A DNA stretch of 64,000 nt. It comes from Escherichia coli (GTDB lineage: Bacteria > Pseudomonadota > Gammaproteobacteria > Enterobacterales > Enterobacteriaceae). Positions 58,901 through 61,900 of this stretch are shown piece after piece. The stretch lies in assembly GCF_017348835.2 (NCBI RefSeq), contig NZ_CP071375.1; one strand, written 5' to 3'. Made by a program: the position numbers. Each line of letters opens with the position of its first letter. The stretch's first letter is position 1.

Positions 58901-61900
58901 GATGTGGATGCCGGAAACATTGACGGCAGCATCCATCGCTGGGCAAAAAATGAAGTTATCGACAACTACCGCGAAGACTGGAAGCGTATCTCGGCATCAA
59001 TGCGCAAACAGCCTGATGCCCTTCGCTACGACCGCCAGACTATTTTTGGCCTTGTCCGTGAACGTCCGATCGACATTCACAAAGACCCTGTGGCACTGAA
59101 CAAATACATTACTGAATACCTGACTACAAAGGGCGTGTTTGAAGATGAAGGAACAAATCAGAGCGCAACTGATACTCTCTCGTCGCCAGTACCAGAAACT
59201 GATGCAGTGGAAACGGCAATTCCGGACAACGAAAAAACCGAATGCAAAGTGGAAGTCGAACCATCTGTAGAGCGTGAGGGGCCGTTCTACTTCCTCTTCA
59301 CCGACAAGGATGGCGAAAAATACGGTCGCGCAAACAAACTTTCTGGTCTGGATAAGGCACTGGCTGCCGGGGCTACTGAAATCACGAAAGAAGAATATTT
59401 CGCCCGCAAAAACGGTACATACTCAGGTTCACAACAAAATACTGGTGCATCTGACACGACCGCACAACCAGAGCCGGTAAAAGTTACCGCTGACGAAGTA
59501 AACAAAATTATGCAGGCAGCCAATATCAGCCAGCCTGACGCCGATAAGTTGCTTGCTGCCTCTCGCGGAGAATTTGTTGCAGGGATCAGCGACCCGAATG
59601 ATCCGAAATGGGTTAAGGGGATCCAGACCCGCGATTCTGTAAACCAGAACCAGCATGAATCGGAACGGAACTACCAAAAAGCGGAACAAAACAGCCCAAA
59701 TGCGTTACAAAACGAGCCAGAAACGAAACAACCTGAACCAGTAGTGCAACAGGAACCGGAAAAGATCTGCACCGCCTGCGGTCAGAGCGGTGGCGGCAAC
59801 TGCCCTGATTGTGGTGCGGTGATGGGTGACGCAACATACCAGGAAATATTCGATGGAGAGAATCAGCCTGAAGTTCAGGAAAATGATCCGGAGGAAATGG
59901 AAGGCACTGCGCATCAGCACAAGGAGAACACTGGCGGCAATCAGCATCATGCCAGCGATAGTGAAACTGGCGAGGCGTCAGATCCCTTAATTAAGGCGAA
60001 CAGTCATCATAATCTCACATCCACCAGCAGAGCGGGGATTCATCTGATGATCGACCTTGAAACCATGGGAAAAAATCCCGATGCCCCGATTATCTCAATA
60101 GGTGCAATATTTTTCGATCCGCAAACCGGAGATATGGGACCGGAATTTAGTAAGACTATCGATCTGGAAACTGCTGGCGGAGTCATTGATCGGGACACCA
60201 TTAAATGGTGGCTTAAACAATCACGCGAAGCGCAATCTGCCATTATGGCCGATGAAATCCCGTTAGATGATGCACTGTTACAATTGCGGGAATTTATCGA
60301 CGAAAACTCCGGTGAATTTTTTGTTCATGTCTGGGGAAATGGAGCCAACTTCGACAACACGATTTTGCGCCGTTCATACGAACGGCAGGGGATCCCCTGC
60401 CCGTGGCGTTACTACAACGATCGCGATGTACGCACAATCGTTGAGCTGGGGAAAGCCATAGACTTCGATGCCAGAACGGCTATTCCATTCGAAGGTGAGC
60501 GCCATAATGCACTTGATGACGCCCGTTACCAGGCAAAATACGTTTCAGCTATCTGGCAAAAACTGATCCCGAGTCAGGCTGATTTTTAATGTTCAACCCT
60601 AATTGCCGCTAACCGTATATAGTTAGCGGCGGTTATGAGATATAGCTATGAGCAGCTTATTTTTAACCGAAGATGAATTGCTAATATTAACGGGCTGCAA
60701 ATATGCAAGCCACCAGCGAAAATGGTTAATGGAAAACGGGCTTCCGTTCTATACCAATCGTAGTGGCAAACCGATTGTCAGCCGGGAGCTATTTACCTGC
60801 AATAAAACTTTACCACCACGCGAGGTAGAGCCGAATTTTGGTGCGATCTGATGGGAAGACGAAGGAAAAATCCTGAACACGAAAAATTACCTCCAAATGT
60901 ATACCCAAATAAATATAGTTATGTATGGAAACCAACATCCAGAGAATCTGTAACACTAACCGCCATCAAGGATGGTTTAGCTGCTTTATGGAAAAAGTAT
61001 GAGGAAACTGTAAATAATCGCGATCGTGCAATGACATTCGGTCGCTTGTGGGAAAAATTCCTCGCCAGCGCCTATTACAGTGACCTCAGTCCAAGAACAC
61101 AAAAAGATTATCTGCAACATCAAAAAAAGTTGCTTGCCGTATTCGGTAAGGTGCCGGCAGATTCCATAAAACCAGAACACATCCGTCGATACATGGACAA
61201 GAGAGGGGAGCAGAGTAAAACGCAAGCCAACCATGAAAAAAGCAGTATGTCCCGCGTTTACAGTTGGGGGTATGAGCGAGGGTACGTGAAGGGTAACCCA
61301 TGTGCAGGTGTAAGTAAATTCAAGGCCAAAAACCGCGAACGATATGTAACCGACAAAGAATACCAGGCAGTATTAAGCGTTGCACCTCTTCCTGTTTTTA
61401 TCGCAATGGAAATTGCCTATCTGTGTGCAGCGAGGGTTTCCGATGTGTTATCGCTGAAATGGGAGCAGATTGGAAACGACGGGATCTTTATCCAGCAAGG
61501 GAAAACAGGAAAAAAACAGATAAAAGCATGGAGTCCACGATTACAGGCGGCGATCGAAAAAGCAAAACAGTTACCAACATCCGCCTATGTAATCAGCAAT
61601 CAATACGGCAACCGATATATGTACAAAGGCTTTAACGAAATGTGGGTAGAAGCAAGAAATCGCGCAGGCAAAATTTCAGGTATTTTAACCGACTTCACCT
61701 TTCATGATCTGAAGGCGAAAGGAATTTCAGACTATGAAGGAAGCAGTCGGGATAAGCAACTTTTCTCTGGTCACAAAACCGAGGGGCAAGTGCTAATCTA
61801 TGACAGGAAGGTTAAAGTTTCACCGACACTTGATGTCCCGTTACCTGAAAATATTCCAAGAAAATATTCCAAGTAATTCCAAGTGTGATTTTTGTCACTG

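What the first reader, a model, noticed from the sequence alone, without database searches (positions are those of the whole stretch)
60604..60627. 24-bp inverted repeat just upstream of xis
CCGCTAAC-cgtatata-GTTAGCGG lies between the exonuclease gene stop and the xis start. It is a candidate operator or RNA stem controlling xis-int expression, and its GTTAGC arm echoes the TTAGC half-sites of the immunity operators.
Basis: seen in the sequence. Interest (0 to 1): 0.2.

Follow-up and report, generated by a model that had tools for sequence, protein, structure and literature searches.

The report
Conserved hairpin upstream of prophage xis
The inverted repeat is real and conserved: a stem-loop that always follows this prophage's exonuclease gene, just before the excision/integration genes. 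It most likely acts in the messenger RNA, not as a binding site for the phage repressor, and it is an ordinary kind of element that nobody has described.

Summary
The repeat exists, 2 nt to the right of the stated coordinates. The core CCGCTAAC/GTTAGCGG is 60606-60613/60622-60629. The perfect 9-bp arms are 60605-60613/60622-60630. On the + strand, with two G·U pairs, it forms a 14-bp stem (60600-60635) with an 8-nt loop (-19.5 kcal/mol, z -4.4).

It is not chance. All 123 exo-to-xis junctions from an unbiased IMG/VR scan carry a hairpin 1-4 nt after the conserved ...TAATGTTCAAC. There are five sequence classes, with compensatory and G·U-preserving changes.

The exo 3' end matches in 4077 of 5426 complete E. 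coli genomes. Among the hits listed, partial matches end at window 60597-60600, the 5' foot of the hairpin.

Hairpin type assorts independently of xis/int type and of the immunity region. An ST64B-like group of shorter homologous exo genes has its own hairpin in the same place.

The DicA-operator idea fails. The true operators are TTAGY-N4-RCTAA, three copies, all in the immunity region. The hairpin has the half-sites in everted order, 10 bp apart. Only 3 of 63 class-A loci carry this repressor.

There is no U-tract and no Rfam match. The best reading is an intercistronic RNA stem-loop that protects or processes the transcript at the end of exo. The main rival is a -10-like TATAGT in the loop, which would make it a promoter cassette for xis-int. 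Low to moderate interest.

The parts
58118..60589 (+). Exonuclease gene. The ORF list gives 58082-60589 from a TTG; the annotated homologues are 2472 nt, which implies the ATG at 58118. The C-terminal domain is an Rv2179c-like 3'-5' exoribonuclease domain. The stop codon TAA is at 60587-60589.
60590..60599 (+). Non-coding tail TGTTCAACCC after the exo stop. TGTTCAAC is shared by all junction classes. Among the listed E. coli and phage hits, partial matches lose homology at 60597-60600, so this is the mosaic breakpoint.
60600..60613 (+). 5' arm of the stem, TAATTGCCGCTAAC. The perfect core is GCCGCTAAC at 60605-60613.
60614..60621 (+). 8-nt loop CGTATATA. The first four positions vary among relatives and the last four (TATA) do not.
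60622..60635 (+). 3' arm of the stem, GTTAGCGGCGGTTA. The perfect core is GTTAGCGGC at 60622-60630. No U-run follows it.
60618..60623 (+). TATAGT, a -10-like hexamer spanning the loop and the start of the 3' arm. It is unchanged in 19 of the 20 class A-C variants (TACAGT in one). Classes D/E carry TGnTATTCT at the equivalent place. This is the candidate core of an xis-int promoter (rival reading).
60637..60640 (+). GAGA, the probable Shine-Dalgarno sequence of xis, 1-2 nt after the stem.
   Evidence: read from the sequence; inference
60648..60851 (+). xis-position gene: a 67-aa DUF4224 protein. Its TGA overlaps the int ATG (ATGA).
60851..61876 (+). Tyrosine integrase.
61929..62018 (-). tRNA-Ser(CGA), the prophage end and attachment site next to mtfA.

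Best explanation
The repeat encodes a stem-loop that forms in the sense (+ strand) transcript of the early-left operon (dicA-side promoter, then dicF-dicB-ydfD-exo-xis-int). It starts 11 nt after the exo stop codon. It is a stable stem of 12-14 bp with an 8-nt loop and no U-tract, so it does not terminate transcription by itself.

Proposed mechanism (inferred). The hairpin marks the 3' boundary of the exo cistron. It blocks 3'-to-5' exonucleolytic decay, or defines a processing point. RNA ending there, after cleavage or Rho-type termination further downstream, stays stable. The distal xis-int segment is expressed and decays separately.

Shown: the structure is real, conserved, linked to exo, favoured on the sense strand, and unrelated to the repressor. 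Inferred: the protective or processing role.
For: Structure. It forms a 14-bp stem on the + strand at -19.5 kcal/mol (z -4.4), against a 10-bp stem at -17.5 kcal/mol on the - strand.

Conservation.
- All 123 junctions found with the exo-end pattern carry a hairpin in the same place, in 5 sequence classes.
- RNAalifold recovers the stem independently in both alignments.
- 90.8% and 91.7% of cells are paired, against 21-75% when the 3' partner is slid by 1-3 columns.
- Double compensatory changes occur at three pairs in classes A-C (GC/AU, CG/UA, GC/AU) and at one pair in D/E (AU:6, GC:6, with GU:2 as intermediates).

Strand.
- One-sided changes are G·U on the + strand in 31+19 cells, against A·C in 14+8 cells. 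The A·C cells sit mostly at the outermost or apical pair.
- Counting by hand from the alignments, about 15 apparently independent events give G·U against about 4 giving A·C.
- The hairpin-only MFE is lower on the + strand in 34 of 44 variants.

Linkage to exo.
- Hairpin classes group as (A,B,C) and (D,E). The xis/int families group as (A,C), (B,D) and E.
- Neither hairpin type was found away from the exo end.
- The distance from the stop codon is constant, while the distance to the xis ATG varies from 12 to 38 nt.
- An ST64B-like group of shorter homologous exo genes has its own hairpin right after the stop. Its loop GTGCAG is invariant and its stems covary, in front of at least five different downstream genes.

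Kind. In E. coli, stable stem-loops without a U-tract immediately downstream of genes are where Rho-dependent transcripts end, and they protect against PNPase and RNase II (PMC6061677). Conserved structures shape differential decay within operons (PMC5927463).
Against: - There are no RNA-end data for this locus.
- The 100 nt downstream are xis coding sequence and do not look C-rich or rut-like (read).
- The G·U excess could partly reflect strand-biased C-to-T mutation on the non-template strand, because the 5' arm is C-rich.
- The shuffle controls are only modestly exceeded, and the sequences are phylogenetically related.
- The 3' half of the loop is nearly invariant (TATAGT, TGnTATTCT). A simple decay barrier does not predict this; a sequence-specific reader does, such as RNA polymerase or a protein.
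- In classes D/E the two apical 'pairs' are often unpaired although their 3' nucleotides never change.
Confidence: 0.4

Rival explanations
1. Promoter-in-hairpin cassette. The conserved TATAGT (60618-60623; TGnTATTCT in classes D/E) is the -10 element of a weak or factor-dependent promoter. It would start xis-int transcripts at about 60630. The inverted repeat would then act as an attenuator or insulator for read-through from exo, like the promoter/stem-loop cassettes (PeSLs) of T4-type phages.
For: - TATAGT scores at the 99.9th percentile and TGnTATTCT at the 99.7th percentile of -10 (+TG) scores in the window.
- The conservation pattern fits. In D/E, T21 and G22 are invariant, column 23 is free, and TATTCT is invariant. 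C28 and T29 never change although their pairing partners do.
- In A-C the hexamer is unchanged in 19 of 20 variants; the exception is a position-3 change, TACAGT.
- The weaker hexamer comes with an extended TG, which is the classical compensation.
- A start near 60630 would leave a 17-27 nt leader containing the Shine-Dalgarno sequence in every class.
- Lambda and mEp235 also have a hairpin directly upstream of the int promoter pI.
Against: - There is no acceptable -35. The best candidates are TCAACC or TTCAAC with 19-20 bp spacers.
- The whole-promoter score reaches only the 98.8-99.5th percentile, which is expected by chance roughly once in a 60-100 nt stretch.
- The consensus scan called nothing here.
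- A promoter does not explain the G·U-only tolerance in the stem.
- The ST64B-like hairpins in the same position have no -10-like element.
- There is one copy per prophage, not a dispersed repeat like PeSLs.
Confidence: 0.25
2. RNA element acting on xis rather than on exo. It could be an RNase III or RNase E processing site, or a structure just upstream of the xis Shine-Dalgarno sequence that sets xis translation or the stability of the downstream segment.
For: - The evidence for a sense-strand RNA structure applies here too.
- In class A the stem ends 1-2 nt before the putative Shine-Dalgarno sequence.
- In the ST64B-like family the stem ends 3-6 nt before a conserved ATGGAGAA.
- From established knowledge, lambda uses RNase III hairpins to regulate int (sib) and N.
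Against: - The stem is 12-14 bp here and 4-7 bp in the ST64B-like family, well short of the roughly two helical turns typical of RNase III substrates (established knowledge).
- The distance to the xis start varies from 12 to 38 nt.
- The Shine-Dalgarno sequence is not sequestered in the MFE.
- Hairpin type does not follow xis type.
Confidence: 0.1
3. DNA palindrome bound by a dimeric protein other than the immunity repressor, either a host factor or a protein shared by all these phages. It would act as an operator or architectural site upstream of xis.
For: - It is a near-perfect 36-bp palindrome.
- Symmetric changes in both arms would also arise from symmetric protein recognition.
- Part of the centre is invariant.
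Against: - Arm sequences differ greatly between classes that share the same exo, and they do not follow xis/int type or immunity type. No candidate cognate protein co-varies with them.
- Asymmetries are biased towards G·U on one strand, which a DNA site does not predict.
Confidence: 0.08
4. One reading: an extra operator for the DicA-type immunity repressor that couples xis-int to immunity.
For: The arms contain GCTAA and TTAGC, the same pentamers as the operator half-sites.
Against: - The operators are TTAGY-N4-RCTAA. There are three, all at 55907-56466, against 0.21 expected by chance.
- The hairpin has the half-sites everted and 10 bp apart.
- GTTAGC is not enriched in the window.
- The class-A hairpin occurs with unrelated or absent DicA homologues in 58 of 63 loci, and with the operator motif in only 2 of 63.
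- Homologous hairpins of classes B and C replace TAAC/GTTA by CCAC/GTGG.
Confidence: 0.02
5. No current function: a relic terminator or a by-product of recombination at the module boundary.
For: It sits exactly at the mosaic breakpoint. Parts of the hairpin look chimeric between classes; for example L211/L223 have a class-A' foot with a class-C top.
Against: The stem is maintained through compensatory changes in five classes, and again in the ST64B-like exo lineage. The element is present in every junction examined.
Confidence: 0.05

Closest known systems
Protective 3' stem-loops of Rho-dependent or processed E. coli transcripts (Dar & Sorek 2018, PMC6061677; differential operon decay, PMC5927463)
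   Same: An energetically stable stem-loop with no U-rich tail, placed just after a stop codon. It lies inside a polycistronic unit where the upstream and downstream segments plausibly need different levels.
   Different: No 3'-end mapping exists for this locus and no obvious rut-like C-rich tract follows. Part of the loop is sequence-conserved, which those structures do not need.
Terminator hairpin immediately upstream of pI/xis in lambda and HK022-type phages
   Same: The position in the genome map is the same: the last element before xis at the distal end of the leftward early operon. The stem is GC-rich and begins GCCGC.... Read directly from lambda (GCCGCCtgatGGCGGTTTTTTC) and mEp235 (GCCGCATcaATGCGGCTTTTTC).
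   Different: Those hairpins carry a T-run (canonical intrinsic-terminator shape) and are followed by the TTGC-N6-TTGC cII boxes annotated in mEp235. The window's hairpin has neither. Its phage is of the DicA/DicB type, and I saw no N-like antiterminator among the ORFs after dicA, although I did not search for one specifically.
PeSL cassettes (promoter-early stem-loop) of T4-type phages (PMC2839356)
   Same: An intergenic cassette running from stop codon to ATG. It has a stem-loop with G·T pairs overlapping a -10-like box, and it sits at a junction where gene modules have been exchanged.
   Different: PeSLs have strong full sigma-70 promoters and occur in about 50 copies per genome. Here there is one copy, no -35, and promoter activity is unproven.
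Lambda sib/tI retroregulator
   Same: An RNA hairpin that adjusts int expression post-transcriptionally in a lambdoid phage.
   Different: sib lies downstream of int beyond attP and forms a long RNase III substrate only in read-through transcripts. This hairpin is upstream of xis, is 14 bp, and is linked to exo.
DicA/Qin-type immunity operators
   Same: They share the pentamers TTAGC/GCTAA.
   Different: The operator geometry is TTAGY-N4-RCTAA overlapping promoters. The hairpin has the half-sites in reverse order, 10 bp apart, 4 kb away, and it does not co-occur with the repressor.

Membership tests
DicA-type immunity operator | Inverted half-sites TTAGY and RCTAA separated by 4 bp | tested here: not met
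   three sites, all at 55907-56466; the hairpin is RCTAA-N10-TTAGY, i.e. everted.
DicA-type immunity operator | Co-occurrence with the cognate repressor gene across genomes | tested here: not met
   3 of 63 class-A loci have DicA at least 95% identical, and 2 of 63 have the operator motif. Caveat: only 6-9 kb upstream of the hairpin was searched.
DicA-type immunity operator | Binding by the repressor protein | not testable with these tools
   Needs EMSA or footprinting.
Intrinsic (Rho-independent) terminator | GC-rich stem-loop | tested here: met
Intrinsic (Rho-independent) terminator | U-rich tract immediately after the stem | tested here: not met
   One search gives no terminator call. The tail is GGTTATGAGATAT after the 9-bp core stem (TGAGATATAGC after the full 14-bp stem) on the + strand, and AATTAGGGTTGAAC on the - strand. 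None of classes A-E has a U-run.
Protective 3' stem-loop of Rho-dependent or processed transcripts | Stable stem-loop, not followed by U-rich sequence, downstream of a gene end | tested here: met
   Definition from PMC6061677.
Protective 3' stem-loop of Rho-dependent or processed transcripts | Steady-state RNA 3' end at the foot of the stem; dependence on PNPase or RNase II | not testable with these tools
   Needs Term-seq or 3'-RACE in an induced lysogen and in exonuclease mutants.
Protective 3' stem-loop of Rho-dependent or processed transcripts | rut-like C-rich, G-poor tract just downstream | tested here: inconclusive
   By eye, the next 100 nt (xis coding sequence) are AT-rich and not C-rich. 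No quantitative rut model was run.
Sigma-70 promoter / PeSL-like cassette | -10 hexamer (or extended -10) | tested here: met
   TATAGT at the 99.9th percentile, TGnTATTCT at the 99.7th. Near-invariant in alignments A1 and A2.
Sigma-70 promoter / PeSL-like cassette | -35 hexamer at 16-18 bp | tested here: not met
   the best candidates are TCAACC or TTCAAC at 19-20 bp.
Sigma-70 promoter / PeSL-like cassette | Many dispersed copies per genome that serve as recombination linkers | tested here: not met
   one copy in the window. It does sit at a mosaic breakpoint.
Sigma-70 promoter / PeSL-like cassette | Transcription start downstream of the -10 | not testable with these tools
   Needs 5'-RACE, dRNA-seq or a reporter fusion.
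Lambda pI-type cII-dependent promoter | TTGC-N6-TTGC boxes | tested here: not met
   TTGC CGCTAA CCGT in the window. The first TTGC is lost in class A' (TGATCGCC).
RNase III site (sib-like) | About 20 bp or more of largely continuous double-stranded RNA | tested here: not met
   The stem is 14 bp, 10-12 bp in other classes and 4-7 bp in the ST64B-like family. The threshold comes from established knowledge of RNase III.
Any Rfam family | Covariance-model match | tested here: not met
   Searches (E up to 10; gathering threshold): nothing at 60590-60647.

The most novel reading that the evidence does not exclude
The hairpin is a dedicated cis-element of the exonuclease gene itself, because that gene is the only constant partner of the hairpin in two exo lineages. 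One version: it is an RNA stop or recognition signal for the adjacent protein's Rv2179c-like 3'-5' exoribonuclease domain, giving self-protection or autoregulation of its own message. Another version: it is a PeSL-like promoter/stem-loop linker at which lambdoid prophages swap whole integration modules. That would help explain why the exo 3' end, found in 75% of complete E. coli genomes, is joined to at least five different xis-int sets exactly at this point.
Probability: 0.1. Interest if true: 0.6.

Novelty: new member of a known kind. Interest (0 to 1): 0.28.

Why it matters
If the reading is right, the hairpin marks the boundary between the recombination genes and the excision/integration genes of a very common family of E. 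coli prophages. The exo 3' end matches in 4077 of 5426 complete genomes, and the full class-A arrangement is present in 1100. The hairpin would then help set how much Xis and Int are made after induction, which affects prophage stability and mobility, including Stx-phage relatives.

It also gives a precise landmark for the point at which integration modules are exchanged between phages. It does not change how phage regulation is understood. It is an undescribed instance of a familiar device, and the attractive link to the immunity repressor is wrong.

Tried and rejected
- **Rfam.** Both the permissive E-value search and the gathering-threshold search found nothing at the hairpin.
- **Consensus promoter/terminator scan.** It made no call at the hairpin.
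- **Hairpin away from exo.** Pattern scans for class A, class B/C and class D/E hairpins in IMG/VR found every genuine copy next to the exo end. The few other hits were unrelated sequences or lacked the 5' arm.
- **xis with a different upstream gene.** 80 close relatives all had the same context. tblastn in phages gave only distant DUF4224 homologues in other genera, which were not informative.
- **K-12 comparators.** DLP12 exoD/xisD and e14 xisE turned out to be different gene families without this hairpin. I did not examine the K-12 Qin prophage; from memory it lacks the exo 3' end.
- **Literature.** Searches for a hairpin upstream of xis, for mosaic boundary sequences and for DUF4224 found no description of this element.
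- **cII boxes (TTGC-N6-TTGC).** Absent.
- **Intrinsic terminator on either strand.** No U-run on either strand.
- **Energy comparison with flanks.** With flanking sequence included, the difference between strands was not decisive. Only the hairpin-only comparison showed the asymmetry.
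Full report
**1. Observation**

CCGCTAAC is 60606-60613, the spacer cgtatata is 60614-60621, and GTTAGCGG is 60622-60629.

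The repeat is larger than described.
- The perfect arms are 9 nt: GCCGCTAAC/GTTAGCGGC at 60605-60613/60622-60630.
- The repeat finder extends them to 14 nt, 60600-60613/60622-60635, at 86% complementarity.
- The two mismatches are T opposite G. As RNA on the + strand the stem is therefore 14 continuous pairs with an 8-nt loop (-19.5 kcal/mol, z -4.42). The - strand forms only 10 pairs (-17.5 kcal/mol).

The repeat lies between the exonuclease stop (TAA 60587-60589) and the ATG of the xis-position gene (60648).

On chance: GCTAAC-N4-12-GTTAGC occurs once against 0.01 expected. Perfect hairpins of at least 9 bp are enriched in the window, with about 12 loci (20 list entries) against 2.7 entries in simulations.

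**2. Surroundings**

The window ends with a lambdoid prophage integrated at tRNA-Ser(CGA) next to mtfA. On the + strand the order is as follows:
- a DicA-type HTH repressor (55973-56380);
- DicF RNA (57423-57474);
- dicB;
- a large exonuclease whose C-terminus is an Rv2179c-like 3'-5' exoribonuclease domain;
- a 67-aa DUF4224 protein in the xis position (60648-60851);
- a tyrosine integrase (60851-61876) whose ATG overlaps the xis stop.

No terminator-like or promoter-like site was called at the hairpin, and no Rfam family matches it. No U-run follows the stem on either strand.

**3. Comparative evidence**

*Mosaic breakpoint.* In the phage collection, many genomes match the exo 3' end at 98-99% identity and then lose homology at window 60597-60600, the 5' foot of the hairpin. 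The same holds in complete E. coli genomes. 4077 of 5426 have a match to the query, 1100 have the whole exo-hairpin-xis-int arrangement, and the partial matches among the listed hits stop at query position 198-200.

*A hairpin at every junction.* The phages that diverge at that point still have a hairpin of different sequence in the same place. An exact-pattern scan of IMG/VR for the exo end gave 123 junctions, every one with a hairpin starting 1-4 nt after ...TAATGTTCAAC. After further scans there were 44 distinct variants in five classes. Classes A, B and C are alignable with each other, as are D and E.

*Consensus structure.* RNAalifold recovers the stems independently.
- In classes A-C, 90.8% of cells pair, against 21-75% when the 3' partner is slid. 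Three pairs show double changes (GC:12/AU:8; CG:16/UA:4; GC/GU/AU).
- In classes D/E, 91.7% of cells pair, and one pair is AU:6, GC:6, GU:2. This is a full compensatory switch with its wobble intermediates still present.

*Which strand.*
- One-sided changes are overwhelmingly G·U on the + strand: 31+19 cells, against 14+8 A·C cells that sit mostly at the outermost or apical pair.
- By hand count there are about 15 independent G·U-type events against about 4 A·C-type events.
- Folding the hairpin alone, the + strand is the more stable in 34 of 44 variants.
- This asymmetry is what an RNA stem in the sense transcript predicts. A DNA palindrome bound by a protein does not predict it.
- The caveat is that strand-biased C-to-T mutation in the C-rich 5' arm could contribute.

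**4. Which gene the hairpin belongs to**

- The xis/int modules fall into families (A,C: DUF4224 with a roughly 340-aa integrase), (B,D: lambda-Xis-like with a roughly 375-aa integrase) and E. The hairpins group as (A,B,C) and (D,E). The hairpin is therefore a separate unit between exo and xis.
- Searches for each hairpin type never found a genuine copy away from the exo end. Close xis relatives always had exo upstream.
- The distance from the stop codon is constant, while the distance to the xis ATG ranges from 12 to 38 nt.
- The homologous but much shorter exo genes of ST64B-like phages are also followed at once by a hairpin. That hairpin has an invariant GTGCAG loop and covarying 4-7 bp stems (CCGG/CCGG, CCTGG/CCAGG, AGCCCGG/CCGGGCT). 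It sits in front of at least five different downstream genes.

The constant partner of the hairpin is therefore the exo gene.

**5. The repressor idea**

- The immunity region contains exactly three sites of the form TTAGY-N4-RCTAA: 55907-55920, 55957-55970 and 56453-56466. The last overlaps a TTGACC-17-TAATCT promoter. Chance predicts 0.21 such sites, and there are none elsewhere.
- The hairpin has the half-sites in the opposite order, 10 bp apart. A dimeric HTH protein would not read that geometry in the same way.
- GTTAGC is not enriched in the window (16 found, 23 expected).
- Among 63 class-A loci with at least 6 kb of upstream sequence, only 3 encode a repressor at least 95% identical and only 2 contain the operator.
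- The homologous hairpins of classes B and C have CCAC/GTGG where class A has TAAC/GTTA.

The resemblance is a coincidence of five bases.

**6. Mechanism**

*Best-supported reading (confidence about 0.4).* The element is an intercistronic stem-loop in the sense transcript that marks the end of the exo cistron. Because it lacks a U-tract, it should not terminate transcription on its own.

It matches the class described by Dar and Sorek: stable stem-loops not followed by U-rich sequence, lying just downstream of genes. Rho-dependent or processed transcripts end there, and the structures block PNPase and RNase II (PMC6061677). Conserved structures of this kind create differential decay within operons (PMC5927463). 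Under this reading the upstream early genes and the distal xis-int segment would have separate stabilities.

Lambda and HK022-type phages place a hairpin at the same map position, directly upstream of pI/xis, but theirs has a T-run. I did not see an N-like antiterminator among the ORFs after dicA, though I did not search for one specifically. If the phage has none, a non-terminating hairpin would make sense there. That step is inference.

*Main rival (about 0.25).* The 3' half of the loop is nearly invariant, and it reads as a -10 element.
- In classes A-C it is TATAGT (60618-60623). In D/E it is TGnTATTCT, with TG and the hexamer fixed and the middle base free.
- In D/E the last two hexamer bases never change even though their supposed pairing partners do.
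- These score at the 99.9th and 99.7th percentile as -10 elements. There is no usable -35, however, and the whole-promoter score is unremarkable (98.8-99.5th percentile).
- This resembles the promoter/stem-loop cassettes (PeSLs) of T4-type phages. Those span stop codon to ATG, often have the stem over the -10 box, and lie at shuffling junctions (PMC2839356).
- It does not explain the G·U pattern or the ST64B-like hairpins.
- The two readings are not mutually exclusive.

*Lesser rivals.*
- An RNase III site or a translational element acting on xis: the stems are too short and the spacing to xis is variable.
- A site for some other DNA-binding protein: no protein co-varies with the arms.
- A functionless relic: contradicted by the compensatory changes.

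**7. Novelty and verdict**

I found no description of this element in Rfam or in the searchable literature. In kind, however, it is a familiar device. I rate it a new member of a known kind with interest about 0.28. What raises it above trivial is its ubiquity and its exact coincidence with the point where integration modules are swapped.

The most novel reading still open (about 10%) has two versions. In one, the hairpin is a cis-signal tied to the neighbouring exoribonuclease-domain protein. In the other, it is a PeSL-like recombination linker.

Noticed in passing
window 55907-55920, 55957-55970, 56453-56466: There are three TTAGY-N4-RCTAA palindromes and none elsewhere in the 64 kb. Two flank the divergent dicC-like/dicA-like start region. 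One overlaps a TTGACC-17-TAATCT promoter just downstream of the dicA-like gene. They are the likely immunity operators.
   Followed up: yes
window 60597-60600: This is a sharp mosaic breakpoint. Among the listed E. coli and phage hits, matches to the exo 3' end at 98-99% identity lose homology exactly at the foot of the hairpin, where at least five different xis-int modules are joined.
   Followed up: yes
loci L375-L454, L124, L125 (ST64B-like phages), just after the exo stop: This is a second hairpin family. The hexaloop GTGCAG is invariant, the 4-7 bp stems covary, and a conserved ATGGAGAA (Shine-Dalgarno) follows in front of several unrelated downstream genes. A similar CGACC-GTGCAG-GGTCG occurs upstream of xisE in K-12 e14 (L130, about 1577-1592). 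The invariant loop suggests a specific reader, which I did not identify.
   Followed up: partly
window 60589-60612: A mini-ORF starts at an ATG that overlaps the exo stop (TAATG). In this window it reads MFNPNCR* and ends inside the 5' arm of the hairpin. The other hairpin classes have mini-ORFs from the same ATG with different lengths: 7 codons in class E, 17 in class C, and 18 in class D, where it ends 8 nt before the xis ATG. It could be translational coupling or coincidence.
   Followed up: no
locus L374 (lambda 29079-29140) and L126 (mEp235) 2480-2525: A canonical terminator-shaped hairpin with a T-run sits directly upstream of, and abuts, the cII boxes of pI. It is not annotated in the lambda RefSeq record.
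   Followed up: partly
window 57423-57474: A DicF sRNA gene (Rfam 76.7 bits) lies upstream of dicB (about 57649-57837), so the prophage carries a Qin-like dicF-dicB cell-division-inhibitor cassette in the same operon as exo-xis-int.
   Followed up: no
window 56371-56403: An 11-bp perfect inverted repeat, TAAAAGATAAC...GTTATCTTTTA, lies right after the dicA-like stop. It has A/T runs on both sides and looks like a bidirectional terminator.
   Followed up: no
window 50019-50343: A hok/sok-type toxin-antitoxin locus inside the prophage: sok RNA (Rfam 114 bits) on the - strand with a 70-aa Hok-like ORF at 50019-50231.
   Followed up: no
window 58118-60589: The gene annotated as 'exonuclease VIII' has only a C-terminal Rv2179c-like 3'-5' exoribonuclease domain (residues 654-825). 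Pfam gives no match for the preceding roughly 650 residues. In ST64B-like phages the homologue is just the 189-aa domain.
   Followed up: partly
window 42612-42728, 45681-45853, 46624-46873, 1125-1214: Other RNA features in the window: an ALIL pseudoknot (IS3-family frameshift signal), STnc100, a cluster of three tRNA genes (Arg-tct, Arg-tcg, Met) and rseX.
   Followed up: no
loci L211, L223 (class C variants): This hairpin has a foot identical to class A' (CCCTGATCGCCG) and a top and 3' side typical of class C, which suggests recombination inside the hairpin itself.
   Followed up: no
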